Shown: in pieces, positions 14,105-60,024 of the stretch
Position numbering within the stretch: the stretch's first letter is position 1
Layout of the letters: every line of letters starts with the position of its first letter
Assembly: GCA_041750555.1 (NCBI GenBank)
Contig: JBGSZB010000011.1
Coordinates: 588 to 64,587, forward strand
Direction: 5' to 3'
Length of the DNA: 64,000 bases
Source: Candidatus Dojkabacteria bacterium
GTDB taxonomy: Bacteria > Patescibacteriota > Dojkabacteria > J137
Made by a program: the position numbers and the translations under genes
Notes under the pieces: model-generated
Told to the model about the DNA's origin: nothing
Database searches by the model: none
What the model saw: only the letters and a program-made list of their open reading frames with translations

Positions 14105-15646
14105 CTACTTTTTCTTGGTTAATCTATTCTCTACCTTGTTTTCAAAGTTTTTTAAGGATCTATGTTTTTTATCTCTTTTCTTTTCTTTTCTTTTAAGATC
14201 TCTATCAATAGAGACATATTCTCCAAATAGTTTTAATGATTTTTGTGTTAAATCATATTTATAGAAGAGTATTCCAAGTATTATCGCTATAAAGCCTAAT
14301 GCTATTCTGTTATCTCTATCGTTATCAAATAATGCAGTTTCTGGTAATTCTCCAGGACATACTCCACCTAGTGCATCTTCACATTCACCTGCAGTTACTG
14401 TTGATCCTGCTGGACAACTATCATCTGTTGTTACAAATGATTCACATGTATTACCATCACTTAAACTGGTTGTACATCTATAGCATGTTAAGTTTTGTGA
14501 TGTTGTTACAGGACATGCTCCACCAACACTTTCTTCACAAGCTGATTGAGTTGTACTTCCTGCTGGACATACACTTCCATTTACACTAAATGATTCACAT
14601 TGATCATTATCACTTAATGTATCAGTACATTTATAACAGGTTGTAGTTACACTTTGTACAGGACACGCCCCACCAACAGCTTGAGAACATACTGAATTAG
14701 TTGTATATCCACTAGGACAACTACTTCCATTAATAGTAATACTTTCACAAGTGTTTACATCATCAACTCTATCAGTACATTTATAACAGGTTACTGTATC
14801 TGTAGGTGTTGTTGGAGGGTTACTTGTATCTTGACAATTATTATTATTAGCAGGGTCTCCAATATGACTACAATAGTTTGTACCAGCTCTAGCATCTGCA
14901 TCACTTGGATAGAAATCAACTTGGGCACATCCATTAGGTAAAACACAACCACTACCACTTGAGAAAGTTACACTTGCTCCTTCATCTGCTAGGGTACATT
15001 GATCATCTCCATTTGAATCAAAACTACATTTATATATTGCACAGTAATTACAAGTGGTAGTTGCACCTCCACAAGTTACTCCATTTGCAACATTTGCTCC
15101 ACTTCCTGCGCTACATACAGGATTAGTTGGGCATGTACAACCATCAACATCACTACATGTTGATGTACAACTACTTAATGATGTTCTTGAACCGTCACCT
15201 GTTGTTCCTGATGGACATGATGTATCATATTTACAACCCTTTGAAGTATTATCTCCCGTAGCTGTATTACATCTATACTCCATTCTTTGACCAGTTGGAC
15301 ACCCTTCTCCGCAAGCACCTGAAAAGTCAACACCTTGAGGGCACTTAGTTGTCTGAGTTTCAGTAGGACATTCAGAAGTATTGTACTCGGCACAATTAAC
15401 CACACTACCTCCAGTTACAGCAACACACTTACATACATAGCCTGTTCTATAGCTACCCCCATTTATTGGATGACTTGTATATTGACACTTTCTTCCATAT
15501 GATGCTGGATCACAAGTCTCTGCACTACTATCATCTGGAGCTTGATCTTGAGTTAGTCTTACAGCTATAAATACAGCTACACCACTAAGTATTAATAATA
15601 CTATTACTAATATAATTGAAATTAATCTTTTTCTATTAGGGTTCAT
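14105..15646 (-). CDS. Cysteine-rich cell-surface protein with three ~45-aa Cys repeats and a C-terminal LPETA sorting signal (putative sortase substrate)
   Basis: 513 aa. N-terminal signal/anchor, then a Cys/Thr/Gly/Ser-rich ectodomain with three tandem repeats TCYKCTD..D.C(E)S...NGS.CP.G.TT.S.C....GGACPV. The C-terminus is LPETA, about 10 residues, a hydrophobic helix and a long K/R-rich tail. Confidence 0.6.
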   Translation of the reverse strand: MNPNRKRLISIILVIVLLILSGVAVFIAVRLTQDQAPDDSSAETCDPASYGRKCQYTSHPINGGSYRTGYVCKCVAVTGGSVVNCAEYNTSECPTETQTTKCPQGVDFSGACGEGCPTGQRMEYRCNTATGDNTSKGCKYDTSCPSGTTGDGSRTSLSSCTSTCSDVDGCTCPTNPVCSAGSGANVANGVTCGGATTTCNYCAIYKCSFDSNGDDQCTLADEGASVTFSSGSGCVLPNGCAQVDFYPSDADARAGTNYCSHIGDPANNNNCQDTSNPPTTPTDTVTCYKCTDRVDDVNTCESITINGSSCPSGYTTNSVCSQAVGGACPVQSVTTTCYKCTDTLSDNDQCESFSVNGSVCPAGSTTQSACEESVGGACPVTTSQNLTCYRCTTSLSDGNTCESFVTTDDSCPAGSTVTAGECEDALGGVCPGELPETALFDNDRDNRIALGFIAIILGILFYKYDLTQKSLKLFGEYVSIDRDLKRKEKKRDKKHRSLKNFENKVENRLTKKK

Positions 15647-17001
15647 TTCCTTTTAAATATATCTACTCTGAAGTATAAAGATAATCCTAAGAATATCAAG
15701 AGTATCCCTACAATAATTGCATCTACTCTATCATTAATAATTGCAGTACCAGGTAGTGAGCCACAATCTGCAGGACATGTAATATTAGATTCACTACTAC
15801 CACATATTCCATCTCCACAAACAACAGATGTACCACTTCCAACAACAGTATTTTGACCACAAGCATCTAATAACAAATTAACATTAGTTACTCTACTTCC
15901 AGTACTAGTAGTTAAAAACACAGTATCAATATCTCCACATTGAGATAGTGTATATCCTCCTTGAGGAGCTAATGGTAAACATCTTTGATTAGTAGTATAT
16001 GCTTGTGATAAACAAGACTCTGCACTTACATTATTTGTATTAGGTAGTAAGAAACCACATGTAGAACCAGTTTGACATAATCCAACTTCATCACTACAAG
16101 GAGCTCCACAAGCATTTAAACTTCCACAAGCACAATTAGCTCCTGGAACTGTTTTACCACTAGGACATGCTGCATTTTCACACATACCATTCCTACAGGT
16201 AACTTCAATCCCTGCTGTAGCTGCTGGTTTACAATCTGCAACTGTAGTACATTTACCACCACATACAGATCTAGAATCTACTGTTGTACCACCTCCAGTA
16301 CTACCTTGTATAGCACAACATAAATCTCCACTACTTGAACAACTTCCACTTCCAGTAACTCTACCTACTGATCCACAATTGTTAACGGTTACCCCATTAT
16401 ATGTAGACCCAGGTGTAAAACATGCCCCACTACATGAACCACCTCCACTCGTTGATGTTCCACCACAAGTTACTCCATTATTAATATTTCCACTTGTATT
16501 ACAACCACTAGGACATGTACATCCATCACTATCATTACATGTTGCTGTACAACTAGTTAATGTTGTTCTACCTGATGTACCACCTCCTGTATTAGTAGGA
16601 ACACAACAGACCTTCACCGAACCTTCCTCACAATCTGTACCAGTTAAAGAAGTTTCATTTGTATTACATGCTGATTTACACGATCCACTAAATCCACCGC
16701 AATTCGTAAGAGTACCCTGACACGAGCAAATATAATTTGAGCCTGAAAGACCACCCTTGCAAATTCCTAAGGCACCACTATCTGTAGTACATGTACCACT
16801 TCCAGGAATTTTTCCACCACAACCATTAAATGAAAGTGTAGTTGAACATATTTCAAAACCGGCTCCAGGCTCTTCATCTGCACTACTATCCGTTGGAGAT
16901 TGTTGTAAAGTAACCTGATATGCTACATAAATAGCTATACCACCTAAGATAAGGGTTGCAAATACTAAAATACCTACAATTACATTTCTTCTATTCTTCA
17001 T
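15643..17001 (-). CDS. Cysteine/glycine/threonine-rich cell-surface protein, paralog of the downstream gene, C-terminal LPGTA sorting signal
   Basis: 452 aa. Its N-terminal anchor is homologous to that of the neighbouring protein (…VTLQQSPTDSSADE vs …LTQDQAPDDSSAE). It is extremely Cys/Gly/Thr/Ser rich. C-terminus is ...SLPGTAIINDRVDAIIVGILLIFLGLSLYFRVDIFKRK. Overlaps the downstream paralog by 4 bp. Confidence 0.6.
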   Translation of the reverse strand: MKNRRNVIVGILVFATLILGGIAIYVAYQVTLQQSPTDSSADEEPGAGFEICSTTLSFNGCGGKIPGSGTCTTDSGALGICKGGLSGSNYICSCQGTLTNCGGFSGSCKSACNTNETSLTGTDCEEGSVKVCCVPTNTGGGTSGRTTLTSCTATCNDSDGCTCPSGCNTSGNINNGVTCGGTSTSGGGSCSGACFTPGSTYNGVTVNNCGSVGRVTGSGSCSSSGDLCCAIQGSTGGGTTVDSRSVCGGKCTTVADCKPAATAGIEVTCRNGMCENAACPSGKTVPGANCACGSLNACGAPCSDEVGLCQTGSTCGFLLPNTNNVSAESCLSQAYTTNQRCLPLAPQGGYTLSQCGDIDTVFLTTSTGSRVTNVNLLLDACGQNTVVGSGTSVVCGDGICGSSESNITCPADCGSLPGTAIINDRVDAIIVGILLIFLGLSLYFRVDIFKRK

Positions 17002-31361: not shown

Positions 31362-33044
31362 TTAAACCAGTTCAGTTGGACTTATAGCTAATTCTACTTC
31401 ACCTGTTTTATCTGCCATACCCTCTAATGGAATAGTAAAGTAAAATGTTGATCCTTTATTCTCCTCACTCTCAAACCACATTCTACCGTGATATGTATTA
31501 ACAATAAGTTTAACAACATATAAGCCTAAACCTGTACCATTAATTTTTTTATCAGCTACATTTTTAGCTCTAAAGTTTTTAGAAAATACTTTATCTTGTT
31601 GATCCTTAGGAATACCAAAACCTGAGTCTTTAACTGAGATTATTATGTTTTTATCATCTTTAGTGTAATCAACAATAATTGGTGCGTTTTCAGGAGAATA
31701 TTTAATAGCATTTGTAATTAAATTGGTAAGAATAAGTCTAATTAAACTTGGATCAATATGTAAATTTAAATAATCACTTTTATTAAATTGTATTCTACTT
31801 ACATCAATTTTATATGATTGTGCAGCATCTGAAATAACATCTTTAATTAAATTATTTAATTCAATATCTTTAGTACTTACATATAATCTTCCAAATTCCA
31901 TTCTAGTAATATTTAATAAGCTGTCTACATATGCAATTAAACTTTTATTTGAAGCGATTACTGTATCCATAGTAACTTTACCTTCACTACTTAATTTATC
32001 ATATACTTCATCTTTAATTAATTCTAAATTCCAACTAATACTAGTCATTGGTGTTTTTAATTGATGAGCAGTAACTGATACAAAATCAGTTTTCATTTGA
32101 TCACTTTTTTTAGCTAATGTAATATCTTCTTCTGTACCAATAAACCCTATTAAATCCTTTTTACTATCAAATATTGGAGATATAACGCTTCTTGCAGTAT
32201 ATAACTCACCATTCTTTCTTTTGTTAACTAACTCTCCTTTAAAAACCTCTTTTTTTTCTTTAATAATATGCCACATCTCCTGATAAAACTCTTTAGGCAT
32301 TTGGCCTCCCCAAAGACTAGGATTTTTACCTAAAACTTCTTGTTGAGTATATCCTGTAATTCTAGTAACAGAGGGATTAGCAAAAATAATTTTACCATCT
32401 AAATCAGTAATAACTATATGGTTAAATGAACTTAGTACTGCGAGTTTAAATACATCTGAATTAGCTAAATCTATTAAACTTTTTACTTTGTATACTAAAC
32501 CTTTATTAGTTTCAATAACATTATCTAACCTCTTTTTATTAACATCACTTAGGTTTTGATATGCCTCATTTTTTATCTCTTCTAAATCTTTAGTATTTAA
32601 TGTAATAGGAGTTTCAACTTCTTTAGCAGTATGTGTTAAAAAATCACTTGTGCTGCTTCCTGCAGCTTTAGCTAAGGTAACATCTTCTTCTGTACTTAAA
32701 AACCCTATTAAAGTGCCATTAGAATCAATTAAAGGAGTAATTACTACCCTCGCATTATATATCTCACCATTCTTTCTTTTATTTATTAATTCACCTTTAA
32801 ATACTTGTCTTTTATTTTTAATTGTATCCCATAAATTTAAGTAATATTCAGAGGGCATCTGTCTTCCCCAAAGTCTTGGTGTTTGTCCAATCATTTCTTC
32901 CTTAGAATACCCTGTAATTCTCTCTGCAGATGGATTTGCAAATACAATTTTGCCATCTAGATCAGTAATTACTACATGGTTAAAAATATCGTTAACAGCT
33001 ATTTGAAATATTGAAGGATTTATATTACTACTAGAGAGATTCAT
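31362..33044 (-). CDS. Cytoplasmic sensor histidine kinase with two PAS domains
   Basis: Duplicated PAS blocks (ITDLDGKI(V/I)FANPS..ITGY...E(M/V)(I/L)G). H-box TAHQLKTPMTSI and HATPase_c motifs NLITNAIKYS, DSGFGIP, GTGLGL. No TM segments. Confidence 0.8.
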   Translation of the reverse strand: MNLSSSNINPSIFQIAVNDIFNHVVITDLDGKIVFANPSAERITGYSKEEMIGQTPRLWGRQMPSEYYLNLWDTIKNKRQVFKGELINKRKNGEIYNARVVITPLIDSNGTLIGFLSTEEDVTLAKAAGSSTSDFLTHTAKEVETPITLNTKDLEEIKNEAYQNLSDVNKKRLDNVIETNKGLVYKVKSLIDLANSDVFKLAVLSSFNHIVITDLDGKIIFANPSVTRITGYTQQEVLGKNPSLWGGQMPKEFYQEMWHIIKEKKEVFKGELVNKRKNGELYTARSVISPIFDSKKDLIGFIGTEEDITLAKKSDQMKTDFVSVTAHQLKTPMTSISWNLELIKDEVYDKLSSEGKVTMDTVIASNKSLIAYVDSLLNITRMEFGRLYVSTKDIELNNLIKDVISDAAQSYKIDVSRIQFNKSDYLNLHIDPSLIRLILTNLITNAIKYSPENAPIIVDYTKDDKNIIISVKDSGFGIPKDQQDKVFSKNFRAKNVADKKINGTGLGLYVVKLIVNTYHGRMWFESEENKGSTFYFTIPLEGMADKTGEVELAISPTELV

Positions 33045-33181: not shown

Positions 33182-33757
33182 ATGAAACATAAAGAGAATT
33201 TAGATACTGTTTTAGTTGCATTAATATCAAGTATTTATGTAACTTTTTGTTACGTTAAATACGTTATTTTACTTCCTTCAACTATATATACTTTAATATT
33301 TTTTGTACTAATTACATTTTTAGGATTAGTTTTAATATATTTATCGTATAAAGATATATACTCCATGGAAGTACCATCTCATTTACTATACATTCTATTA
33401 GGTGTATTTGTAGCTATAAATATATTATTACTTCCCTTCGATTTTAGTTTAACTTTTGGTAATTTATACTTTTTCCCAATTAACAATCTATTTATAGGAT
33501 TAATTTGTGGAGGTATTGCTCTATTAATATATCTATTAACTAAAAGAAAAGGTTTAGGAGAAGCTGACATCTATTTATTCACATTAATGGGATTAGTGTT
33601 AGGTAGTAATAAAACAATATTAGGTTTCTATTTAACACTAATTTCAGCAAGTATTTACTCAATATATATATTAATTAAAATTAAAAAGTTTAAAGAAGTT
33701 AAAATACCCCTAATTCCATTTATCACTTATGGAATACTAGCTAGTTTAATACTTTAA
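33182..33757 (+). CDS. pilD: Prepilin peptidase (A24 family), short form without the N-terminal zinc-finger/methyltransferase domain
   Basis: 191 aa, polytopic, with Asp-containing loops (KDIYSME ... GEADIYLF) consistent with an A24 aspartyl peptidase. It is convergent with the pilin operon. Confidence 0.5.
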   Translation: MKHKENLDTVLVALISSIYVTFCYVKYVILLPSTIYTLIFFVLITFLGLVLIYLSYKDIYSMEVPSHLLYILLGVFVAINILLLPFDFSLTFGNLYFFPINNLFIGLICGGIALLIYLLTKRKGLGEADIYLFTLMGLVLGSNKTILGFYLTLISASIYSIYILIKIKKFKEVKIPLIPFITYGILASLIL

Positions 33758-33897: not shown

Positions 33898-34356
33898 TTA
33901 TCTTTTAACAGATATTGTTGCACTATTCTCAGCATCTGGAGATGCTACTGTTACTCTTCCATTAGATTCTGAACAAATAGTATAACCTGTATCTAATGCA
34001 GTTCCAGTTGAAGGATCTTGAGGAATTCCAACAATATATTCAGGTACCAAGTCCGTTGCTAAATTTAAATTACCTACATCTGTTCCAATAGCTGTAACTG
34101 TTGGACAAGTTGAAATTGTTCCTAAATCTCCTAATGTATTTCCATCTTCAGATGTAAATTGAGTTACAGCATTTAATATTTGTAATACATCAGAACTTCT
34201 TTGAGTATTTCTAGCATCAGCAAAGTTTTTAGCAGGATTAATTGCAATAAAAGTAATTGCAGCTAAGACAGCAATAAGACCAACTACCACTAATACCTCA
34301 ATAAGAGTGAATCCCTTCTTAACTTGATCCATAATTTTTTTTATAATATTTAACAT
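33898..34356 (-). CDS. Type IV (ComGC/PilA-like) major pilin
   Basis: Class III signal MLNIIKKIMDQVKKG|FTLIEVLVVVGLIAVLAAI with Glu+5. 152 aa. It is the last gene of the pilus operon and is followed by the terminator. Confidence 0.75.
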   Translation of the reverse strand: MLNIIKKIMDQVKKGFTLIEVLVVVGLIAVLAAITFIAINPAKNFADARNTQRSSDVLQILNAVTQFTSEDGNTLGDLGTISTCPTVTAIGTDVGNLNLATDLVPEYIVGIPQDPSTGTALDTGYTICSESNGRVTVASPDAENSATISVKR

Positions 34357-34394: not shown

Positions 34395-34814
34395 TTATAC
34401 TTCATTCCAACTTTGAATTACCATATCTGGATTTATTGTTTGAATCGTTATATCTATTCTAAAGTAATATCCTTCTTTATCTGAACTTACTTGAAATGAT
34501 CTATTAGTATTCCCACTTCCACTAATTGTTCCAATGACACAATCTCCAAAACTTAAATTTCTTGTTTCATTACCAATATATGTATCACTAATCTTTAATT
34601 CATTTAGAGCTATCTCTGCACAACTTTCTGCTAATGCTTTTGATTGTTTACCTTTTTCAATTGAAGATATTGCAACTATATTTTCAATATTAATAGATAA
34701 TGAACTATATACTACTAATAATCCTACAACTGAGATAATTATTACACTTACTAATGTAACAAAACCTCTCTTTTGTTTGTTATTTAATTTTTTATCTAAA
34801 GTATGCACTTCCAT
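34395..34814 (-). CDS. Minor pilin-like protein (ComGG/PilX-like), lacks Glu+5
   Basis: N-terminus ...NKQKRGFVTLVSVIIISVVGLLVVYSS is prepilin-like with a hydrophobic helix but without the conserved E5. Confidence 0.4.
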   Translation of the reverse strand: MEVHTLDKKLNNKQKRGFVTLVSVIIISVVGLLVVYSSLSINIENIVAISSIEKGKQSKALAESCAEIALNELKISDTYIGNETRNLSFGDCVIGTISGSGNTNRSFQVSSDKEGYYFRIDITIQTINPDMVIQSWNEV

Positions 34815-35310
34815 AAAATGTTTTTGAATAATTTAAATCTGATCTATTATCTGGATTAACATGGGTTAGAATAAATTCGTAATGGATTACTTCATTTAAA
34901 CCAGTTGGTGTTAAATTTTTAAAAGTTAAGTTACTAGCTATTACATTACTTGAGGTTAATGATATTGCAGGGTTAGCGCCTTCTGTAATTTGAATAGCTC
35001 CTGAAGTAATATTTACAACTACAGGATTTATTACTCCATTAACAAGAGATAAAGAATTAGCACTATTACCTGCTGTTGGAGAATTAATACTATCACTTGA
35101 TCTGAAATAGTTATTTAAATAATCAACTACAATAGCTCCATTTTGATTAACTTCATTAATTGTTAATGTTTTATTCTGACTCTCTACAATTGCTGTTATA
35201 AAGCCAATAAATGATAATAAAACAACACTTACTAAAGATATATATAGTAGGGATTCAATAAGAGTAAATCCTTTAATTTTCTTTTTTAAACTTATTCTAT
35301 TTTTTATCAT
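34792..35310 (-). CDS. Type IV minor pilin
   Basis: N-terminus MIKNRISLKKKIKG|FTLIESLLYISLVSVVLL. Confidence 0.6.
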   Translation of the reverse strand: MIKNRISLKKKIKGFTLIESLLYISLVSVVLLSFIGFITAIVESQNKTLTINEVNQNGAIVVDYLNNYFRSSDSINSPTAGNSANSLSLVNGVINPVVVNITSGAIQITEGANPAISLTSSNVIASNLTFKNLTPTGLNEVIHYEFILTHVNPDNRSDLNYSKTFYGSAYFR

Positions 35311-35320
35311 TTAATTTCTT

Positions 35321-36763
35321 TTATTGTTCATTTATTCTTAAAAATTCAGCTGAGTTACTAGAGAATGCAACATATGATTTATCTCTATCATAGTCATATA
35401 CAACGCCTGATGCAGTTGATGACAAATTCAGTTCTCCTCTTATGGTTAAGTCTGATGGGTCAGAAATATTAATCGTTGTAAATTCTCTTGGACCTGAGTC
35501 AAGAGCCAGGAAAGCAATAGTTCCTGTAGGGTTAATATCTATATCGTTAACATCATCATCAACATCTAGACTATCTAAAAACGTAGGAGAAAGAGGATTT
35601 GTTACATCAATAGAATATATAATTTCATCCTCACAACCTAAGTAAACCGTATTTGAATAATATGCTACAGTTAAACAATTAGAATTCCCTGGCTTGTCAT
35701 ATGATGCTACTTCGTTTGGATTAGCCTTATCACTTACATCATAAACTACCAGTTCCTCTGAATTACTCGAAGTGGAAACATACGCATAATTTCCACTTAC
35801 AACTACTTCATACATTGTTCCCCCAGAATAATTATCTGAACCAATAAATGTTGGTGCAATGTTTGGGTTATTAACTTGAACGATAAAAAATTCATCACCA
35901 CCACCTGCCGAAGATCTTACAAAATATACATAGTTTGAAGAATCAATAAAAACTCCATTTGCATCATGATTACTACTAGCATTGTAAGTAGATGACATAG
36001 TTGGGTTAGATGGACTAGATAAATTAAATATTTGTAGCTCTGAAGAATTACTACTAGATGCAATAGCTCCAAAGTTTCCATTAGGAGATACTGCAATATT
36101 TATTGGTGCAGAAGTTATCGTTTGAGAATTAGTTACACTTAAAGCTCCATCAACATCAATTGTTAAAAAATTAGGAGATCCTCCATTTCTAATAATATAT
36201 GAATAATCATTAATATATGTAATCTTAGTTCCCCCTCCATTATTTAATAAATTAAAACTATCTGCTAGGGTTGGATTTGTCCAATAATCTAAAATTACTG
36301 TTCTTAACCAATTAGTAAAATAACTAGATATTACTACACTATTATTTGCACTAAAAAACGATGGCCAAGTTACAGTTGAAGTAACTAACTTAGTTTCAGA
36401 ATCAACTGTTGAAATATCAACACTTCTAACATACTCTCCATTTAAATCAGATGATCCACTAGTTACCCAATTACTTCCTGCTAAACTTAATCCATAACTA
36501 CCATCTGTTAAGTTTGAATAATCAATATCTCTAATACTTCTAATTGCTTCTAATCCCTCTTCAGCTAAAAATATAGCCCCTGTCCTATAACTACTTAATT
36601 CTGAATTTTGAATAGATACAACTAGTCCTGAAGCTAAACCTAAACTCACTATTCCAAATAGTGAAATTGATAATATTACTTCAACTAAAGAAAATCCTTT
36701 TTTATTTCTTCTTACTTTTTTTAAGTTTAATCCTTTTAGAATTTTTAAAACTTTAATTCTCAT
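35321..36763 (-). CDS. Prepilin fused to an LVIVD-repeat beta-propeller domain (candidate pilus-tip adhesin)
   Basis: 480 aa. N-terminus ...RRNKKG|FSLVEVILSISLFGIVSLGLASG carries the class III signal with Glu+5. The C-terminal ~350 aa contain repeated ...SGNYAYVSTSSNSEELVVYDVSDKANP..., ...VYLGCEDEIIYSIDVTNPLSP..., ...IAFLALDSGPREFTTINISDPSDL... blocks matching the LVIVD repeat consensus. Confidence 0.6.
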   Translation of the reverse strand: MRIKVLKILKGLNLKKVRRNKKGFSLVEVILSISLFGIVSLGLASGLVVSIQNSELSSYRTGAIFLAEEGLEAIRSIRDIDYSNLTDGSYGLSLAGSNWVTSGSSDLNGEYVRSVDISTVDSETKLVTSTVTWPSFFSANNSVVISSYFTNWLRTVILDYWTNPTLADSFNLLNNGGGTKITYINDYSYIIRNGGSPNFLTIDVDGALSVTNSQTITSAPINIAVSPNGNFGAIASSSNSSELQIFNLSSPSNPTMSSTYNASSNHDANGVFIDSSNYVYFVRSSAGGGDEFFIVQVNNPNIAPTFIGSDNYSGGTMYEVVVSGNYAYVSTSSNSEELVVYDVSDKANPNEVASYDKPGNSNCLTVAYYSNTVYLGCEDEIIYSIDVTNPLSPTFLDSLDVDDDVNDIDINPTGTIAFLALDSGPREFTTINISDPSDLTIRGELNLSSTASGVVYDYDRDKSYVAFSSNSAEFLRINEQ

Positions 36764-36802: not shown

Positions 36803-37225
36803 TTAATAATCAACAATACCTAATGAATTAATTGTAATAACATCACTATTTACCTCTCCATTAACATTAATAGTTGCACTTGTATTTGGAATACCACTAA
36901 ATTTAACAAAATTAACTTCATTATTACCACTAAAGGATACTCCATCAAAAGAATATACTTGATCAAGAGTTACATCCCTTGATACATAATCATTCCCACT
37001 ATAAATTGTTACACTGTTTCCACTAAGATATACTCCCCAATTAGAATCATTTTTTTGTGATCGAGCCAAAATATTTGCACTTCTAATTGAAGTAATTGTA
37101 AGGGTTGTTGCATTCTCTACTTCAGATCTATATAGAAAGGAATTAAAAAATGGTACTGAGAATCCAGCTATTATGGAAACTAATGCAATTGATAACAATA
37201 CTTCTACTAGTGTAAATCCTTTCAT
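36803..37225 (-). CDS. Type IV minor pilin / pseudopilin
   Basis: N-terminus MKG|FTLVEVLLSIALVSIIAGFSVPFF. 140 aa. Confidence 0.65.
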   Translation of the reverse strand: MKGFTLVEVLLSIALVSIIAGFSVPFFNSFLYRSEVENATTLTITSIRSANILARSQKNDSNWGVYLSGNSVTIYSGNDYVSRDVTLDQVYSFDGVSFSGNNEVNFVKFSGIPNTSATINVNGEVNSDVITINSLGIVDY

Positions 37226-37239
37226 ATTTTATTTACTAA

Positions 37240-38391
37240 TTAATTAGTTTGAACAGTTCTACCTCTTGCTGCATCATTTATATTTCCAACTAAATTATAT
37301 ATTGGAAGAATAATAGATAGGGCTACAAATGCTACTCCTAACCATACAATAATTAGTAATATAGGTTCTATTAAAACACTTAAGTTCTTTAAAGTATTCT
37401 CATTTTTTAATTCATAAACCTCCCCTATCTTTGAAAGAGATTTACTTAGTGACCCAGATTTCTCTGAAGAAATTAATAACTGTCTAGAGTAAGGTGGTAA
37501 GACATGCCCTATATATTTATATTTATCAACAATCTGACTAAAGGTATACCCCATTTCTAATTGAGATTTCATAAACTCATAAAAAACTTTATACCTTTTA
37601 TACACAGTTGAAGATATTAATAAATCCATAGCATTTAATAATGGATAACCAGTTTGTAATAGAGAACCTAATAAAAATCCAAATCTAGCTACTTCTACTT
37701 CTGTTAACATTCTTCCTAATAGTGGAATTCTAAACATAATTTCTTGACCAATGTGTTTACTTCTTTTAAATATAAAGAGAAAAAAGTATATAATTCCAAA
37801 AACAATAAAGATTAGTGGAATAACTATACCCCCATATGCATCTAGAAAATCTCCTAAACTAATTAATGCTTTAGTAACCCCTGGTAATTCAATGTTTAAT
37901 CCTTTATACACTGATGTTATTCTAGGTAATACAAAAAGTATCATTGAAAACCCTACAATAAAGATTAGTATTAAAACTAATACAGGATACAGACTAGCTG
38001 ATCTTATCTTGTTTTTAAACTCTCTCTCCTTTTGCATTTGAGATAAAACTATTAATGTATTTTCTTTAAGTTTTCCACTTCTTTCTCCAATTTGAATTAC
38101 AGATAAAAGATGACTAGGTAAAAGGTTTACTCTTTCTATACTTTTCCAAATACTACTTCCATCTTTAATATCTTTTTCTATTGATTCAACTGTATGTTGT
38201 AAACTTTTAGAAGATGATTCTGCTTTTAATACTTGAAGAGATGAAGATATATCTAAATCTGATGAAATAATTAAACCAAAATTCTCAAAAAATATCTCTT
38301 TTTCTTTTTGAGTTAACCTTTGTTTAAATAGAAACTCTAATATTTTATTTCTCTTTTTGATAGCCATAGATTTTTCTAGAATCAACTTCAC
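37240..38391 (-). CDS. pilC: Type IV pilus / type II secretion platform protein PilC/ComGB (GspF family)
   Basis: 383 aa with two T2SSF-like repeats and three TM segments. Directly downstream of the PilB-like ATPase; the annotated start overlaps pilB, so the true start may be an internal Met. Confidence 0.8.
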   Translation of the reverse strand: MKLILEKSMAIKKRNKILEFLFKQRLTQKEKEIFFENFGLIISSDLDISSSLQVLKAESSSKSLQHTVESIEKDIKDGSSIWKSIERVNLLPSHLLSVIQIGERSGKLKENTLIVLSQMQKEREFKNKIRSASLYPVLVLILIFIVGFSMILFVLPRITSVYKGLNIELPGVTKALISLGDFLDAYGGIVIPLIFIVFGIIYFFLFIFKRSKHIGQEIMFRIPLLGRMLTEVEVARFGFLLGSLLQTGYPLLNAMDLLISSTVYKRYKVFYEFMKSQLEMGYTFSQIVDKYKYIGHVLPPYSRQLLISSEKSGSLSKSLSKIGEVYELKNENTLKNLSVLIEPILLIIVWLGVAFVALSIILPIYNLVGNINDAARGRTVQTN

Positions 38392-40021
38392 TTGGAGCTA
38401 CTCTTATTAATTCATCAATATCAATTAAACCCTCTTTTACCTTTTCTATACCATCATCAAACATAGTTCTTGCTCCATTCTTTGTAGCTAGTTCTCTAAC
38501 TTCTAAACTTGATGGATTTTTTAAAATTACATTCTTAATATCTTCAGTTATGTATATTAATTCAAATAGTCCGATTCTTCCTTTATATCCTGTGTTATTA
38601 CATGCAGAACATCCTTTACCTTTAAATAGCGTTAATTGATCTTTATTAAAATACTTTTTAGGATCTGGGAAAAACTTTTCTAATTCATTAAAGCTTGTTT
38701 CATAACTATATCTACAGGTAGAACATATTCTTCTGGATAATCTTTGAGCAATTATTAAATTTAAGGTTGAAGCGAGTAAGAATGGCTCTACCCCCATATC
38801 TAAAAGTCTAGGGATAACTGTTGCTGCATCATTTGCATGAAATGTAGATAGCATTAAGTGTCCTGTAAGGGATGCATTTATTGCTATTTCAGAAGTCTCT
38901 CTATCTCTAATTTCTCCAACTAAAATTACATCTGGATCTTGTCTAACAATTGATCTTAAACCTCTAGCAAATGTTACTTCAGTTTCTAGATTAACTTGAA
39001 TTTGATTAACTCCATCAATTTTATATTCTACTGGGTCTTCAATTGTTGTTATATTAATCTTTGGATCTTTAAGTTTTTTAATTACAGAATACAAAGTTGT
39101 AGTTTTACCACTTCCTGTAGGTCCAACAGTTAATATCATTCCAAATGGTCTGCTGGAAGCTTCTTCTAATATTTTATGATCAGCTTCTCCTAAACCTAAA
39201 TCATTTAAACTTAGAGTTCTAATGTATCTAGATAAAATTCTAATAACTACATTCTGTCCATTAATTGTAGGTGCAATTGATATTCTTAAGTCAATTCCAT
39301 TATCTCCTGTTTTAACTCTAATTGCTCCATCTTGAGATGAAAAATGATCATCTATTCTTAAATTAGAAAGTACTTTAACTCTGTTTATTAAGTTTTCAAA
39401 GATATCTCTTGAAGTACTACCAACCTCATGCATAACTCCATCTATTCTAAATCTAATATCTACAGATTCTTCTTGTGGTTCGAAATGAATATCACTTGCT
39501 TCTAAATCTAGAGCTTCTTTTAATACTTCGTTAAATATTTCAGAAGCTACTCCGTATTCTTTTCTCTCTATAGTTTGAAATTTTTTTTCAAGAGATACTT
39601 TATATATATTTAGTACTTCATTCACTACATTGTTATCAGAATATCCAACCTCAATTGTTTTACCTTTAAATACTTCTTTAGCTTTCAATTTAATATCTTC
39701 TAAATATTCTACTTTTGAAGTTGTTAATAGAAATCTTTTTGGAGTTTCTTTTACAAATACACAGTTGTATCTTCTAGCAAATTTCTCAGGTAATCTTAAA
39801 ACATCTTCATTAGATGGTTTAGATACTTCTAAGTCAATAAATCTAACATTGTTTTCTTCTGCAATAGCTTCTAATACAAGTTTTCTAGTTAATAGCTCTT
39901 TTTCAATTAATGTATTAATTATCTCTTCATTGGATCTACCTTCTAAGCCTTTTAAATCAGACTCTTCAATGTAGTTATGTTTAATTAAATACGTTATTAA
40001 GTTTTTATCACTTAGATCCAT
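38345..40021 (-). CDS. pilB: Type IV pilus assembly ATPase PilB/ComGA (GspE family)
   Basis: N-terminal GSPII-like domain. Walker A GPTGSGKTT, Asp box, Walker B ILVGEIRD, His box, and the tetracysteine motif CSTC...CSAC. Confidence 0.9.
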   Translation of the reverse strand: MDLSDKNLITYLIKHNYIEESDLKGLEGRSNEEIINTLIEKELLTRKLVLEAIAEENNVRFIDLEVSKPSNEDVLRLPEKFARRYNCVFVKETPKRFLLTTSKVEYLEDIKLKAKEVFKGKTIEVGYSDNNVVNEVLNIYKVSLEKKFQTIERKEYGVASEIFNEVLKEALDLEASDIHFEPQEESVDIRFRIDGVMHEVGSTSRDIFENLINRVKVLSNLRIDDHFSSQDGAIRVKTGDNGIDLRISIAPTINGQNVVIRILSRYIRTLSLNDLGLGEADHKILEEASSRPFGMILTVGPTGSGKTTTLYSVIKKLKDPKINITTIEDPVEYKIDGVNQIQVNLETEVTFARGLRSIVRQDPDVILVGEIRDRETSEIAINASLTGHLMLSTFHANDAATVIPRLLDMGVEPFLLASTLNLIIAQRLSRRICSTCRYSYETSFNELEKFFPDPKKYFNKDQLTLFKGKGCSACNNTGYKGRIGLFELIYITEDIKNVILKNPSSLEVRELATKNGARTMFDDGIEKVKEGLIDIDELIRVAPSEVDSRKIYGYQKEK

Positions 40022-40547
40022 TTTTACTTATTAATTCAAAAATAGTGGTTACCATTTTAGCGAGTGGAGTACTCCCTTTGTTTATATACTCAACTCCATA
40101 TGATATTGCCTTTTCTCTATCTTCTGGTTGACTTAAACTAGTTGCAACTAATATATTTAATTTTTTACCTTGTTTTTTTAATTCATCTAATACTTCAAAG
40201 CCACCCATTTCAGGCATTACAATATCTAATACAATTAAGTTGTATTTATTACTTTTTAAAAATTCTAGGGCTTCTAAACCATTAGCTGCTGTATCAACAT
40301 ATACTCCTAGACTATTAAGTTTTAATTTTAATACTCTAGATAATGCTTTTTCATCATCTACTACTAATACCCTGTATTTAAATTCTTTAGGTTTTTCAAT
40401 TACAACCTTTTCCCTAGATTCAACTGGTTTAACTTCAGGTGTTTTAACTTCAGTATCCAAAGATTCTGTTTCAACTGGTGTAACTTCTTTAGGTGGTTGA
40501 TTAGCCTTATCTCCAAATTTAGAAAATATTAATTTAGGTGGCTCCAC
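40008..40547 (-). CDS. Stand-alone response-regulator receiver (CheY-like REC) with a Pro/Glu/Lys/Val-rich N-terminal extension
   Basis: REC signature ...RVLVVDDEKALSRVLKLKL...LIVLDIVMPEMGGFEVL...LVATSL.. with no output domain. Overlaps the pilB start by 14 bp. Confidence 0.75.
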   Translation of the reverse strand: MEPPKLIFSKFGDKANQPPKEVTPVETESLDTEVKTPEVKPVESREKVVIEKPKEFKYRVLVVDDEKALSRVLKLKLNSLGVYVDTAANGLEALEFLKSNKYNLIVLDIVMPEMGGFEVLDELKKQGKKLNILVATSLSQPEDREKAISYGVEYINKGSTPLAKMVTTIFELISKNGSK

Positions 40548-40704: not shown

Positions 40705-41247
40705 ATGAACAAAAACTATTTATACATTCTAGTTACAGTATTTGTATTATCTTTTGGGGTAATAGCAATAATGCTAATCGTTGAGAATGAAAACAATAGA
40801 ATATTAAGAGTAGATAATGATTCAAAAGATGTTATTTCAATGAATGATAGTGCAGATAATACAGTAGATGATCCAGAACAAGATAACGGTAGTGATGATA
40901 TTAAAGGTGAAGAGTATGTAGATAATGGAAGTAAATATCAAGAGTTTTCTGTTAGTAAATTAATTGCAAATAAGGATAAGAAGCAAATATTGTTTTACCA
41001 TGCATCATGGTGTCCTACGTGTAAAATATTAAATGACAACTTAAATAGTAATTTAGTGAGCATCCCAAGTGATGTAGTAATATATAGAGTGGATTATGAT
41101 GATACTCAATATAATCAAATGAAAAGAGATCATGGTATAACATATCAACATACCCTAGTTTATGTTAATGAAAATGGAGAATTAATTGATAAATGGGCAG
41201 GAAGTTTAAATGTTGATGAGGTAATTGATAAATTAAATAATGTATAA
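40705..41247 (+). CDS. Membrane-anchored thioredoxin-like thiol:disulfide oxidoreductase
   Basis: N-terminal TM anchor and a Trx fold with active site WCPTC (…FYHASWCPTCKIL…). Confidence 0.6.
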   Translation: MNKNYLYILVTVFVLSFGVIAIMLIVENENNRILRVDNDSKDVISMNDSADNTVDDPEQDNGSDDIKGEEYVDNGSKYQEFSVSKLIANKDKKQILFYHASWCPTCKILNDNLNSNLVSIPSDVVIYRVDYDDTQYNQMKRDHGITYQHTLVYVNENGELIDKWAGSLNVDEVIDKLNNV

Positions 41248-41254
41248 TCAATAA

Positions 41255-41698
41255 ATGACTTTAAAGAAATCTTCACTTAAAAAATATGGTGTAATTACAA
41301 TAGTTAGTATTGGTTTACTTACGTTAATATTAGTTGTATCTCCATTTTTACAAAACCTATTAAAAGTTAATAATTCACTACCATATGATGTAGCAACTTA
41401 TGTTGAATACAAACAAGATCAGAAGTTTTTAAATGATAAGAATGTTTTATTCTTTAAAGCTAATTGGTGTGGAACTTGTCATGTAGCTGAAACTAATATA
41501 TTAAATAGTTTAAGTAGTATTCCAAAAACTCTAACTATATATTCGCTTGATTTTGAAAATAGTAAGAATAATGATTTAAAAAAGAAATATGGAGTAACTA
41601 CACAACATACATTTGTACAGGTAGATAGAAATGGTAATTTAATTAAAAAATGGGAATTAAGTTATACAGTTAATGAAATTTTAGAGCAGTTAGTTTAG
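41255..41698 (+). CDS. Membrane-anchored thioredoxin-like thiol:disulfide oxidoreductase (paralog of the upstream gene)
   Basis: N-terminal TM anchor and active site WCGTC (…[13 protein letters not shown]…). Confidence 0.6.
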
Positions 41699-58988: not shown

Positions 58989-59636
58989 ATGTATCTAATT
59001 TTACTAATTTCAATCCTATTAATATTTATCCAATTAACTATTGCCCTTTATGCATGGAGTTTAAAACCCTCTATTGTTAGGAAATATAAAAATATCATAA
59101 GTAGTCAATTAGATCCCTCCCTTGTATTAGAGAAATATAGTAAGAAATTTAAAAATATAACAATTAGAGTTAATAACGCTCTTGATGATGTAGCTTTTAG
59201 TGAAAAGGGTTATGTAATGTTTAGACAGAAATCGTTGTATAAAAAGGATTTATATACTAACTTTATGTCACTTTATTATCTATATTTATCTCAGAATAGA
59301 TACTATAGGTTATCTAAAATTAATTATTTACCTAATTTATTATTTCCACTTCAAATTATTACTCTTATTGCGGGATTAGTTACAACTTTTGAATTAATTA
59401 ATCCATTTATTATCTTAACCTTTGTTATTCAGATATTTTTATTACTTTTATCTTTAGTTAATTTTTATACTTTAAATAGCTTTTTAAATAAGTTACATAA
59501 AGATGCAACTAAGATATTAGAGTTAGATGATTTAGAAGAGGAACGAGCTAAGTCGTTAAAAAGTGATTTGAGTTATAGAGTATTTGAATACCCCTACGAA
59601 ATTATTTGGAGAGTAATACAGTTTATTAAGCCTTAA
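58989..59636 (+). CDS. Hypothetical membrane protein
   Basis: 215 aa with several TM helices. Confidence 0.35.
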   Translation: MYLILLISILLIFIQLTIALYAWSLKPSIVRKYKNIISSQLDPSLVLEKYSKKFKNITIRVNNALDDVAFSEKGYVMFRQKSLYKKDLYTNFMSLYYLYLSQNRYYRLSKINYLPNLLFPLQIITLIAGLVTTFELINPFIILTFVIQIFLLLLSLVNFYTLNSFLNKLHKDATKILELDDLEEERAKSLKSDLSYRVFEYPYEIIWRVIQFIKP

Positions 59637-59639
59637 ATT

Positions 59640-60024
59640 TAGTCCATTCAATAAGCCGGATTCTGTTACTATTTCTAGTATGAGAATTATTTATCTAAGC
59701 CCTAATTATATTAGGTTGCTCCAGCTAGGGGTTACAAGCATTCTATTATTACTAATAGAACCGGTGGTCTCTTACACTTATTCCTCTAATTCCAATTGGT
59801 TGATAGAGGACACCTTTTCACCATTGCACTTACAATGTAAGTAAGCTGTAATATTTCTGTTGCCCTTTTATCCCTAAGATTACTCCCAGCCAGTCATTAA
59901 TATTGCTATTAATTACGTGGTAGCTATTTCGTTTTTAAAAGATCTAAAGTACGAAACCAAAACGGAGTCCGGACTTTCCTCTATATTAATTTCTTAATAC
60001 AGCAATTCTCTTGAATGGACTCTC
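59640..60024 (-). ncRNA. rnpB: RNase P RNA (bacterial type A), ~385 nt
   Basis: Minus-strand sequence contains GAGGAAAGUCCGGACUC (P4 5' strand; plus 59965-59981), GGUGAAAAGGUG (plus 59817-59837), GUAAGAGACCACCGG (plus 59758-59775) and ACAGAAUCCGGCUUAU (P4 3' strand; plus 59651-59666). A P1 helix pairs 60011-60021 with 59641-59651. The interval is ORF-free and GC-elevated. The ends are approximate. Confidence 0.75.

What the first reader, a model, noticed from the sequence alone, without database searches (positions are those of the whole stretch)
35321..36763. Prepilin N-terminus fused to an LVIVD-repeat beta-propeller: candidate pilus-tip adhesin
The 480-aa protein starts with a bona fide class III signal (G|FSLVE, Glu+5) and hydrophobic pilin helix. 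It then carries ~350 aa of LVIVD-type repeats (…SGNYAYVSTSSNSEELVVYDVSDKANP…, …IIYSIDVTNPLSP…, …FTTINISDPSDL…) that form beta-propellers in archaeal and bacterial surface proteins. A propeller displayed on a pilin is a plausible adhesin, possibly for host-cell attachment in an episymbiotic lifestyle. I am not aware of a characterised pilin-LVIVD fusion.
Basis: seen in the sequence. Interest (0 to 1): 0.65.

Follow-up and report, generated by a model that had tools for sequence, protein, structure and literature searches.

The report
Pilus minor pilin carrying a beta-propeller
This gene encodes a type IV pilus subunit with a seven-bladed LVIVD beta-propeller attached, probably a pilus-tip adhesin of an ultrasmall (CPR) bacterium; this type of protein has been catalogued before, and a related case has been tested experimentally.

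Summary
ORF 35321-36763 (-) encodes a 480-aa protein. It has a prepilin signal (G23|FSLVE; Pfam N_methyl 29 bits, cutoff 21.2) and an LVIVD repeat (36.7 bits, cutoff 20.2). AlphaFold (pLDDT 90) shows a complete pilin (52-residue helix plus beta-sheet head, aa 24-152), a short linker, and a seven-bladed propeller (aa 165-480).

The gene is second of four minor-pilin genes in the operon RR-pilB-pilC-H-I-J-K-major pilin, next to a prepilin peptidase. At family level its pilin module resembles I-type core minor pilins (ComGE/XpsI/PilV/GspI).

The operon is conserved across many Patescibacteria lineages. The same slot holds a bare pilin, pilin+LVIVD (1 to many propellers), pilin+LVIVD+CBM2, pilin+FN3, or modules with no Pfam match.

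So this is a modular minor pilin, most likely showing a binding module at the pilus tip.

It is not new in kind. Raynaud et al. 2021 list 30 pilin-LVIVD (IPR012902-IPR013211) proteins. Grossman et al. 2025 showed that a propeller-bearing minor pilin (PilX2, RCC1-type) promotes host binding in Saccharibacteria. The ligand and the tip location remain inferred.

What is added here is the I-slot assignment and the module swapping. Interest is moderate to low.

The parts
35321..36763 (-). Whole gene: 480-aa modular minor pilin (I-type pilin module + LVIVD seven-bladed propeller)
   Evidence: ORF list; Pfam N_methyl + LVIVD above cutoffs; AF2 model pLDDT 90.2; 40-member family A1
36695..36763 (-). 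Leader peptide, aa 1-23 (MRIKVLKILKGLNLKKVRRNKKG), basic, ending in the cleavage-site Gly23
   Evidence: Sequence; G|FSLVE conserved in most homologues; low pLDDT
36524..36694 (-). Pilin alpha1 helix, aa 24-80: hydrophobic N-half with Glu28 (= +5), then the conserved LAEEGLEAxRxIRD motif
   Evidence: Model helix 26-77/80; invariant E28, A67, E69, G70; 48-56% mean pairwise identity
36308..36523 (-). Pilin globular head, aa 81-152: antiparallel beta-sheet with invariant W99, R113, W133
   Evidence: Strands 88-150 with pLDDT >90; conservation; homologous to bare 146-300-aa pilins in the same operon slot of other CPR genomes
36272..36307 (-). Linker, aa 153-164, between the pilin module and the propeller
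   Evidence: pLDDT falls to about 59 for aa 151-160; N-terminal-only homologues stop matching at aa ~152-157
35324..36271 (-). Seven-bladed LVIVD-type beta-propeller, aa 165-480 (blades approx. 163-206, 207-252, 253-302, 303-347, 348-391, 392-437, 438-480)
   Evidence: 28 strands; seven self-aligning ~44-aa repeats; Foldseek hits to 7-bladed propellers, TMt 0.75-0.81, rmsd ~3; LVIVD 40/40, Beta_propel 36/40; choice_anch_B TIGR04312 39/40
35696..35821 (-). The one LVIVD repeat that Pfam detects in this sequence (aa 315-356, blade 4: ...SGNYAYVSTSSNSEELVVYDVSDKANP...)
   Evidence: PF08309, 36.7 bits, E 2.6e-9
36803..37225 (-). Upstream minor pilin, 140 aa, H-type (GspH/ComGD-like)
   Evidence: N_methyl 24.8 bits; family scan: GspH 33/36, ComGD 32/36
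34792..35310 (-). Downstream minor pilin, 172 aa, probably J-type (ComGF / PRK10557-like)
   Evidence: N_methyl 21.7 bits; family scan: PRK10557 28/35, ComGF 24/35
34395..34814 (-). Pilin-like protein, 139 aa, lacking Glu+5 (RG|FVTLV); probably K-type (GspK/ComGG-like) tip subunit
   Evidence: Family scan: ComGG 8/33, GspK 2/33, weak; Glu5 absent across the family; conserved position
33898..34356 (-). 152-aa pilin, probable major pilin
   Evidence: N_methyl 30.4 bits, TIGR02532 31.5 bits; last pilin gene in the conserved operon
37240..38391 (-). PilC/GspF platform protein
   Evidence: T2SSF, 129 bits
38345..40021 (-). PilB/GspE assembly ATPase
   Evidence: T2SSE, 404 bits
33182..33757 (+). Prepilin peptidase (Peptidase_A24 only, 191 aa)
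   Evidence: PF01478, 40.5 bits
40008..40547 (-). Response regulator at the head of the operon
   Evidence: Response_reg, 79.9 bits; conserved position in CPR loci
31362..33044 (-). PAS-PAS histidine kinase downstream of the pilin genes
   Evidence: Sequence; PAS/HisKA/HATPase_c kinase in the same position in L001 and L002-type loci

Best explanation
The protein is a modular type IV minor pilin. The neighbouring A24 prepilin peptidase probably cleaves its N-terminal class III signal after Gly23. The mature protein then has a full pilin module (hydrophobic alpha1 helix plus small beta-sheet head) of the I type, the positional and sequence-level counterpart of GspI/PilV/ComGE. A ~12-residue linker joins this to a seven-bladed LVIVD ('choice-of-anchor B'-like) beta-propeller.

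Together with the H-, J- and K-type minor pilins encoded beside it, it would form the priming complex that starts pilus assembly on the PilB/PilC machine and ends up at the filament tip. The ~35-kDa propeller would then sit at the pilus tip as a ligand-binding (adhesin) module, most plausibly for a cell-surface glycan or protein of a host bacterium or a substrate.

Shown: the architecture, the fold prediction, the operon position, the conservation across CPR, and module swapping at this slot. Inferred: cleavage, incorporation at the tip, and adhesion. Unknown: the ligand.
For: Prepilin motif and LVIVD repeat score above curated cutoffs. The AF2 model (pLDDT 90.2) shows helix 26-77, sheet 88-150, a linker, and 28 strands forming 7 blades. 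Foldseek matches 7-bladed propellers at TMt 0.75-0.81.

Family scans of the pilin module hit only I-type models: ComGE 27/40, XpsI 19/40, PRK10332 17/40, PilV 9/40, GspI 4/40. The neighbours scan as H-type, J-type, and K-type lacking Glu5. PilB, PilC and a prepilin peptidase lie alongside.

The order RR-PilB-PilC-H-[this slot]-J-K-pilin-(HK) recurs in about 80 loci from many Patescibacteria lineages. The same slot holds bare 146-300-aa pilins, LVIVD pilins, LVIVD+CBM2 (88.6 bits), FN3, or modules with no Pfam match, and pilins with 2 to many propellers. This is what one expects of an exchangeable effector or binding module on a conserved carrier.

The pilin module is more conserved (47% mean pairwise identity) than the propeller (38%), and the putative top-face loops are the least conserved part.

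Precedents: the modular pilins PilB and PilC of S. sanguinis are adhesins, and such pilins are argued to be tip-exposed (PMC8179133). Deleting the propeller-bearing minor pilin PilX2 of TM7x halves host binding (10.6% to 4.6%) (PMC11623550 / PMC12206443).
Against: There is no direct evidence for cleavage, assembly, tip location or binding. All I/H/J/K assignments rest on sub-threshold hits to equivalog models (for example PilV 22.7 bits against a cutoff of 52.2), which the shared N-terminal helix partly drives.

Structure searches with the isolated pilin module were not significant (best E 0.05; EpsI/GspI only rank 18, E 0.28). PDB profile searches were also uninformative.

The propeller fold is generic, and no ligand-binding site could be identified. 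Residues conserved across the family are mostly structural (G, P, Y, and the repeated E of the motif). The conservation difference between loop classes is small, and the top/bottom assignment comes from canonical propeller topology, not from coordinates. No PilT or PilM/N/O lies within the 64-kb window.
Confidence: 0.62

Rival explanations
1. The propeller is mainly a structural or priming element, analogous to the C-terminal propeller of PilY1. It would cap or stabilise the minor-pilin complex, control extension and retraction, or sense surfaces, rather than act as a specific adhesin.
For: The gene sits in the core minor-pilin cluster that primes assembly in other systems. PilY1 is a seven-bladed propeller protein bound to the minor-pilin tip complex (discussed in PMC8179133, and PMC11623550). 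The single-propeller form is well conserved in length and sequence across many CPR lineages.
Against: Many CPR genomes carry a bare I-type pilin, or a quite different module, in the same otherwise identical operon. So the propeller is dispensable for the machine. TM7x lacking PilX2 still makes filaments but binds hosts poorly. There is no PilY1-type (PF05567) signature.
Confidence: 0.14
2. The propeller is an enzyme, such as a glycoside hydrolase or phosphoesterase, carried on the pilus to modify the host surface.
For: Foldseek and profile hits include the Sphingobium phosphotriesterase propeller 5hrm (E 3e-11; E 0.003). Raynaud et al. found pilins fused to peptidase modules. The WS6 orthologue with CBM2 is annotated as an endoglucanase.
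Against: The hits are generic propeller similarity at 9-13% identity, with WD40/G-beta proteins scoring equally well. No His/Asp/Glu constellation is invariant in the family; the invariant residues are structural. No hydrolase family was detected by Pfam or NCBIfam. The endoglucanase name comes only from the CBM2 domain.
Confidence: 0.08
3. The protein is not polymerised into a filament. The class III signal and helix would serve only as a membrane anchor and export route for a cell-surface propeller, as in archaeal 'bindosome' substrate-binding proteins.
For: LVIVD / choice-of-anchor B propellers occur with many different anchoring devices, for example the T9SS sorting domains on the more distant hits. 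The propeller is bulky for a thin CPR pilus.
Against: A complete pilin head domain is retained and conserved, not just the signal and helix. The position between H- and J-type minor pilins is fixed across about 80 loci. Bare orthologues exist in the same slot.
Confidence: 0.08
4. The operon encodes a Com-like DNA-uptake pilus, and the propeller is its DNA receptor.
For: The best family-level matches of the minor pilins are to ComGD/GE/GF/GG. CPR type IV pili have been proposed to take up DNA (discussion in PMC11623550).
Against: The mature protein is strongly acidic (D+E 52, K+R 16), which does not favour DNA binding. The alternative modules at this slot (CBM2, FN3) are not DNA binders. TM7x T4P-2 mutants keep wild-type competence.
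Confidence: 0.05

Closest known systems
Modular type IV pilins (Raynaud et al. 2021, PNAS; S. sanguinis PilB = pilin+vWA, PilC = pilin+lectin), including the catalogued architecture IPR012902-IPR013211 (pilin-LVIVD)
   Same: A class III signal and a small pilin module are joined by a short linker to a bulky module that is not specific to pilus biology. These are minor pilins predicted to be tip-exposed. Dataset S1 of that paper lists 30 proteins with IPR012902 followed by 1-13 IPR013211 (= LVIVD) repeats. The text mentions an 860-aa Falkowbacteria example.
   Different: The LVIVD class was only counted there ('motif of unknown function'). It was not modelled, placed in an operon, or tested. 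PilB and PilC carry vWA and lectin modules, not propellers. The present work adds that the carrier is the I-type core minor pilin of a CPR-wide operon and that the module at this slot is exchangeable.
PilX2 of Nanosynbacter lyticus TM7x (Grossman et al., ISME J 2025, PMC12206443)
   Same: It is a CPR minor pilin with a C-terminal seven-bladed beta-propeller. It is proposed as the adhesin of a type IV pilus, and its deletion halves host binding and abolishes competitive fitness.
   Different: The PilX2 propeller is described as RCC1-type, and the protein lacks a predicted PilD signal. It is encoded in a pilin-only locus separate from the machinery. The protein here has a canonical G|FSLVE signal and an LVIVD-type propeller, with no RCC1 hit. 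It also lies inside the pilB-pilC operon.
PilY1 / PilC tip-associated adhesin of Pseudomonas, Neisseria and Myxococcus T4aP
   Same: A seven-bladed propeller is presented at the pilus tip through the core minor pilins. It is encoded within the fimU-pilV-pilW-pilX-pilY1 minor-pilin cluster.
   Different: PilY1 is not a pilin. It has no class III signal and docks non-covalently onto the minor pilins. Its propeller belongs to PF05567/IPR008707, which was not detected here. Here the propeller is covalently fused to the PilV-equivalent subunit.
GspI / PilV / ComGE / XpsI (I-type core minor pilins of type IV filaments)
   Same: It shares the N-terminal motif, the alpha1C motif (A..LAEEGLEA.R) and the gene position between the H- and J-type subunits. 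Family-level sub-threshold hits go only to I-type models.
   Different: Classical I-type pilins are the smallest minor pilins (about 100-140 aa) and carry no extra domain. No model reached its curated cutoff, and fold search was inconclusive.
Choice-of-anchor B / LVIVD-repeat surface proteins (TIGR04312, PF08309)
   Same: The propeller is homologous: 39/40 family members hit TIGR04312 (best E 1.5e-17), and LVIVD is found in 40/40. Both are extracytoplasmic surface proteins of unknown ligand.
   Different: Those proteins are anchored by C-terminal sorting signals (T9SS tails in the more distant hits) or are giant multi-propeller proteins. Here the 'anchor' is an N-terminal pilin.

Membership tests
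Type IV pilin (class III signal peptide; PF07963 / TIGR02532 / IPR012902) | N-terminal motif: short hydrophilic leader ending in Gly, then about 20 hydrophobic residues with Glu at +5, scoring above the curated cutoff | tested here: met
   KKG23|FSLVEVILSISLFGIVSLGLA; PF07963 29.0 bits (cutoff 21.2), TIGR02532 20.7 bits (cutoff 16.3). At 23 aa the leader is long.
Type IV pilin (class III signal peptide; PF07963 / TIGR02532 / IPR012902) | Lollipop fold: an extended alpha1 helix of about 50 residues packed on an antiparallel beta-sheet | tested here: met
   AF2 models show helix 26-77/80 and strands 88-150, with pLDDT 88-97 in this region. This is a prediction, not an experiment.
Type IV pilin (class III signal peptide; PF07963 / TIGR02532 / IPR012902) | Cognate prepilin peptidase and assembly machinery (PilB/PilC) encoded in the genome | tested here: met
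   Peptidase_A24 40.5 bits at 33182-33757; T2SSE 404 bits; T2SSF 129 bits, in the same locus.
Type IV pilin (class III signal peptide; PF07963 / TIGR02532 / IPR012902) | Actual cleavage and polymerisation into a filament | not testable with these tools
   Needs biochemistry or microscopy.
LVIVD-repeat beta-propeller (PF08309 / IPR013211) | PF08309 match above the gathering threshold | tested here: met
   36.7 bits against 20.2, aa 315-356; 40/40 family members, best E 1.7e-52.
LVIVD-repeat beta-propeller (PF08309 / IPR013211) | Tandem four-strand repeats of about 40-45 aa forming a closed propeller | tested here: met
   Seven self-aligning repeats; 28 strands in the AF2 model; Foldseek hits to 7-bladed propellers at TMt 0.75-0.81.
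Choice-of-anchor B (TIGR04312) | Match to TIGR04312 at or above its curated cutoff | tested here: inconclusive
   39/40 family members match at E<=0.01 (best 1.5e-17), but the window protein itself does not. Cutoff scores for the members were not displayed.
Modular type IV pilin (sensu Raynaud et al. 2021) | [quoted passage not shown] | tested here: met
   The architecture IPR012902-IPR013211 is listed in their Dataset S1, and IPR013211 = LVIVD.
I-type core minor pilin (GspI / PilV / ComGE) | Match to an I-type equivalog model above its curated cutoff | tested here: not met
   PilV TIGR02523 22.7 bits (cutoff 52.2); ComGE 14.6 bits (cutoff 49). Across the family only I-type models are hit (ComGE 27/40, XpsI 19/40, PilV 9/40, GspI 4/40), all below the cutoffs. 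So this is a positional and distant-sequence counterpart, not a formal member.
I-type core minor pilin (GspI / PilV / ComGE) | Gene order H-I-J-K within the minor-pilin cluster | tested here: met
   p140 = GspH/ComGD-like; p172 = ComGF/PRK10557-like; p139 = ComGG/GspK-like and lacking Glu5. The order is conserved in about 80 loci.
I-type core minor pilin (GspI / PilV / ComGE) | Structural similarity of the head domain to GspI/PilV | tested here: inconclusive
PilY1 / PilC tip adhesin (PF05567 / IPR008707) | PilY1-type C-terminal propeller domain | tested here: not met
   No PF05567 hit at E<=1, and none among family members.
PilY1 / PilC tip adhesin (PF05567 / IPR008707) | A non-pilin protein (ordinary signal peptide) that docks onto minor pilins | tested here: not met
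   This protein is itself a pilin.
TM7x PilX2-type propeller minor pilin | RCC1-repeat propeller | tested here: not met
   No RCC1 family appears among the Pfam hits of the query (E<=1) or among the families matched by the 40 members.
TM7x PilX2-type propeller minor pilin | Direct sequence homology to PilX2 | not tested

The most novel reading that the evidence does not exclude
The I-type minor-pilin slot of a pan-Patescibacteria type IV pilus operon may be an exchangeable 'receptor-binding cassette'. The same conserved pilin carrier is found bare, or fused to LVIVD propellers (one to many), propeller+CBM2, FN3, or modules with no Pfam match. The module identity would set which host cell or surface an episymbiont can attach to, much as receptor-binding proteins do on phage tails. 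The LVIVD propeller would be the commonest such host-recognition module in environmental CPR.
Probability: 0.3. Interest if true: 0.6.

Novelty: new member of a known kind. Interest (0 to 1): 0.35.

Why it matters
How ultrasmall CPR/Patescibacteria recognise and attach to their hosts is largely unknown. Type IV pili are the leading candidates, and only one system (TM7x) has been studied genetically.

This locus shows that a very widespread CPR pilus operon carries its variable, probably ligand-binding, module on one defined subunit: the I-type core minor pilin. The LVIVD propeller is a frequent choice of module. That yields a concrete, expressible domain (aa 163-480) and a comparative framework (bare, propeller, FN3 and CBM2 variants of the same slot) for testing host or substrate specificity.

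It would also give the LVIVD repeat a first functional context; its function is otherwise unknown. The concept itself, modular pilins acting as tip adhesins, is already established.

Tried and rejected
(1) Sequence search of the full protein against the PDB found nothing significant (bromoperoxidase, E 0.02-0.1, judged chance). The profile search found only generic propellers.

(3) The PDB profile search with a pilin-module alignment gave only N-terminal helix matches and a sub-threshold LT-IIB similarity.

(4) The search for related loci with the 40-sequence alignment failed because no stretch was conserved enough. It worked with the tighter A2 alignment.

(5) An exact look-up of the window protein's contig found no record, so the source organism could not be named. 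No rRNA lies in the window.

(6) The exhaustive profile search could not size the pilin-LVIVD family. The propeller alone matches 77,074 representatives, and giant multi-propeller proteins dominate the list.

(7) Code 25 (Gracilibacteria) was considered and rejected: TGA ends 7 of 35 long ORFs, and all operon genes are intact under table 11.

(8) A PilY1 homologue was considered and rejected (no PF05567 hit). An RCC1-type propeller as in PilX2 was also rejected (no RCC1 hit).

(9) A conserved functional leader peptide was considered. The apparent leader similarity among homologues (MK.E.LQS.QK.W) may come from the 25-50-nt overlap with the upstream gene in those loci, so it was not pursued.
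Full report
**Observation**

The window has an ORF at exactly 35321..36763 on the minus strand (480 aa, ATG). The only plausible start is the ATG at 36763, because no other start codon lies before the cleavage motif. This gives a 23-residue basic leader ending in Gly23, followed by FSLVEVILSISLFGIVSLGLA with Glu at +5.

Pfam scores the N-terminus as N_methyl (29.0 bits, cutoff 21.2) and aa 315-356 as an LVIVD repeat (36.7 bits, E 2.6e-9, cutoff 20.2). NCBIfam TIGR02532 also passes its cutoff.

Two refinements are needed:
- Pfam sees only one LVIVD unit in this sequence. The other six are divergent but align to it as ~44-aa repeats.
- The region between the signal and the repeats is not a spacer. 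It is a complete pilin domain.

**Structure**

An AlphaFold2 model built on 40 homologues is confident (mean pLDDT 90.2, pTM 0.70). It has these parts:
- a 52-residue alpha1 helix (26-77);
- an antiparallel sheet (88-150);
- a short, less confident linker (pLDDT about 59 around 151-160);
- 28 strands between 165 and 478, which is seven four-stranded blades.

The first strand probably completes the last blade; this follows from the repeat register and was not read from coordinates. Foldseek against the PDB returns more than 1,000 seven-bladed propellers (G-beta, WD40, a Sphingobium phosphotriesterase) with TM about 0.75-0.81 on the target, rmsd about 3 Å, and 9-13% identity. This confirms the fold but points to no ligand. 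The mature protein is acidic and rich in Ser/Thr/Asn.

**Family**

The word-indexed search found 89 relatives. About 49 are full-length (450-492 aa, 24-39% identity) with the same architecture. Across 40 aligned members:
- LVIVD is detected in 40/40 (best E 1.7e-52);
- Beta_propel PF09826 is detected in 36/40;
- N_methyl is detected in 31/40;
- the NCBIfam 'choice-of-anchor B' model TIGR04312 is detected in 39/40.

G|FSLVE is conserved, as is a downstream helix motif RA..LAEEGLEA.R.IRD. More distant hits are LVIVD proteins with T9SS sorting tails from other phyla. The exhaustive profile search shows the propeller type is extremely common (77,074 representatives at E<=1e-3), including giant multi-propeller proteins. 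Some proteins begin with the same pilin module and carry two to many propellers (791, 1266 and 1998 aa).

**Genomic context**

The gene lies in a tightly packed minus-strand operon with short gaps or overlaps:
- response regulator (40008-40547);
- PilB ATPase (38345-40021, T2SSE 404 bits);
- PilC platform (37240-38391);
- a 140-aa pilin;
- this gene;
- a 172-aa pilin;
- a 139-aa pilin-like protein;
- a 152-aa pilin.

A divergent 191-aa A24 prepilin peptidase (33182-33757) and a PAS histidine kinase (31362-33044) follow.

Each minor-pilin family was collected from related loci and scanned against NCBIfam:
- **140-aa protein:** GspH 33/36, ComGD 32/36.
- **This protein:** only I-type models, namely ComGE 27/40, XpsI 19/40, PRK10332 17/40, PilV 9/40 and GspI 4/40.
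- **172-aa protein:** PRK10557 28/35, ComGF 24/35.
- **139-aa protein:** weakly ComGG 8/33 and GspK 2/33.

The 139-aa protein also lacks Glu5 throughout its family. By my own knowledge this is the hallmark of GspK-type tip subunits.

The order is therefore H-I-J-K followed by the probable major pilin. This matches gspHIJK, fimU-pilVWX and comGD-GG.

These assignments are all below the curated equivalog cutoffs, and the shared helix partly drives them. Fold search with the isolated pilin module (model pLDDT 88.2) was not significant, and PDB profile searches were uninformative. So 'I-type' is a supported inference from convergent weak hits plus gene order. It is not a demonstrated membership.

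**Distribution and module swapping**

A scan of one genome per species found 181 confirmed relatives. The 80 best loci come from Komeili-, Morani-, Pacei-, Sacchari-, Staskawicz-, Magasanik-, Uhr-, Doudna-, Kaiser-, Jackson-, Kuenen-, Falkow-, Gracili- and Peribacteria, and from WWE3 and WS6/Dojkabacteria. A few MAGs are labelled as other phyla; I suspect those labels are wrong, but I did not check them.

tblastn with all ten window proteins shows the same gene order in almost every locus. The slot occupied by this gene is variable:
- In about 17 loci it is a bare pilin of 146-300 aa.
- In about 54 loci it is pilin+LVIVD. Most are 458-513 aa; some are 600-800 aa.
- In WS6 OLB20 it is pilin+LVIVD+CBM2 (88.6 bits). 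NCBI names that protein 'Endoglucanase D precursor'.
- In Buchananbacteria it is pilin+FN3.
- In about 8 loci it carries 400-840-aa extensions with no Pfam match.

The sample is biased towards LVIVD forms because loci were ranked by similarity to the query.

The pilin module is more conserved than the propeller (47% against 38% mean pairwise identity). Within the propeller, the loops expected on the 'top' face are slightly less conserved (0.48-0.50) than bottom loops (0.54-0.59) and strands (0.58). This trend is weak.

**Most likely mechanism**

Shown:
- the domain architecture;
- the predicted fold;
- the presence of the processing and assembly genes;
- the conserved operon position;
- the exchangeability of the C-terminal module.

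Inferred: the peptidase cleaves after Gly23. The pilin module joins the H, J and K subunits in the priming complex on PilC/PilB. The complex is pushed out at the filament tip. The propeller, which is too bulky for the filament body, is displayed there and binds a surface ligand.

The CBM2 and FN3 variants of the same slot support a binding role, as do published precedents. S. sanguinis PilB (vWA) and PilC (lectin) are modular minor-pilin adhesins (PMC8179133). In the CPR bacterium N. lyticus TM7x, deleting the propeller-bearing minor pilin PilX2 halves host binding and abolishes competitive fitness while filaments still form (PMC11623550 / ISME J 2025 PMC12206443).

The rivals are listed with their tests, and none is excluded outright. 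They are a PilY1-like structural or priming role, an enzymatic propeller, a non-polymerised surface anchor, and a DNA receptor of a Com-like pilus. The existence of bare and alternative-module orthologues in otherwise identical operons argues against an essential structural role. The lack of conserved catalytic-type residues, the absence of enzyme family hits, and the acidic charge argue against the enzyme and DNA-receptor ideas.

**Comparison with what is known**

The protein meets the definition of a modular type IV pilin. The specific architecture IPR012902-IPR013211 is already in Dataset S1 of Raynaud et al. 2021. Counts are 8 proteins with one repeat, 8 with two, 4 with four, 7 with five, 1 with six, 1 with thirteen, and 1 with an added IPR019198, which makes 30 of 1,219. 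The text cites an 860-aa Falkowbacteria protein with 12 copies of this 'motif of unknown function'. IPR013211 is the LVIVD repeat.

The protein is not a PilY1 homologue (no PF05567 hit, and it is itself a pilin). It also does not match the description of PilX2, which is RCC1-type, lacks a PilD signal and lies in a separate pilin locus. Direct comparison with PilX2 could not be run.

It probably works like PilY1 or PilX2, as a propeller at the tip. But it belongs to a different family, and the propeller is covalently fused to the PilV/GspI-equivalent subunit.

**Verdict**

It is a further member of a kind that has been catalogued (pilin-LVIVD) and, for a sister architecture, tested experimentally in CPR.

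What is modestly new here is the assignment of the carrier to the I position of a pan-CPR H-I-J-K operon, and the evidence that this slot is a site of module exchange. Tip location, adhesion and the ligand remain untested.

Noticed in passing
window 33182-33757 (+): The prepilin peptidase is only 191 aa and matches Peptidase_A24 alone, with no N-terminal methyltransferase region. Pilins here may be cleaved but not N-methylated.
   Followed up: partly
window 31362-33044 (-) and 40008-40547 (-); L001, L002 and most loci L003-L082: A PAS-PAS histidine kinase and a single-domain response regulator flank the pilus operon in this window and in most CPR loci. This suggests conserved two-component control of the pilus.
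   Followed up: partly
window 40705-41247 (+) and 41255-41698 (+); L001 2694-3131: Two adjacent membrane-anchored thioredoxin-like ORFs (WCPTC and WCGTC motifs) sit next to the operon. L001 has a VKOR gene upstream of the same operon. The K-type pilin family has two conserved Cys. There may be a link between disulfide formation and pilin maturation.
   Followed up: no
window 34395-34814 (-): The 139-aa pilin-like protein and all its orthologues have G|F/Y-[IV]-T-L-hydrophobic instead of Glu at +5, as in GspK-type tip subunits. Pfam and NCBIfam do not recognise the window copy at all.
   Followed up: yes
L038 8001-9875 (WS6 bacterium OLB20; P0040): The orthologous slot encodes pilin + LVIVD propeller + C-terminal CBM2 (88.6 bits). 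NCBI names the protein 'Endoglucanase D precursor', which is probably a misannotation driven by the CBM.
   Followed up: partly
P0124 (791 aa), P0123 (1266 aa), P0121 (1998 aa), P0191 (1676 aa): Proteins that start with the same I-type pilin module (GFSL[IV]E ... EG[LI]EA.R.IRD ... TNW) carry two to many LVIVD propellers and further domains. These would be very large loads for a pilus subunit.
   Followed up: partly
window aa ~67-115 of the target (about 36419-36565); family A1/A7: There is a sub-threshold similarity between the end of alpha1 plus the first strands and the B chain of heat-labile enterotoxin IIB. Pfam PF06453 hits 7/40 members (best E 4e-4), and PDB E is 0.03-0.07. It is probably chance.
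   Followed up: no
L080 1565-3079 against 9305-10775 (WWE3 bacterium CSP1-7); L022: In these genomes the LVIVD pilin is not in the canonical slot. In L080 it lies about 6 kb upstream of the operon, and the gap at the operon slot is large enough for a short pilin gene. In L022 PilB follows the pilins. So paralogous or relocated copies exist.
   Followed up: no
window 35524-35568 (aa 399-413, blade 6): An Asp-rich stretch DVDDDVNDIDINPTG resembles a Ca-binding loop but is not conserved in the family, where only VNDI is conserved.
   Followed up: no
window 14105-15646 and 15643-17001 (-): Two adjacent, apparently paralogous ORFs (513 and 452 aa) with similar N-terminal membrane anchors lie in the only stretch of raised G+C (0.34 against about 0.27). 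They were not examined.
   Followed up: no
window 59636-60022 (-): A bacterial class A RNase P RNA (112.5 bits) and three tRNAs are present, but no rRNA, so the organism could not be named. TGA is used as a stop codon, so the standard code applies.
   Followed up: partly
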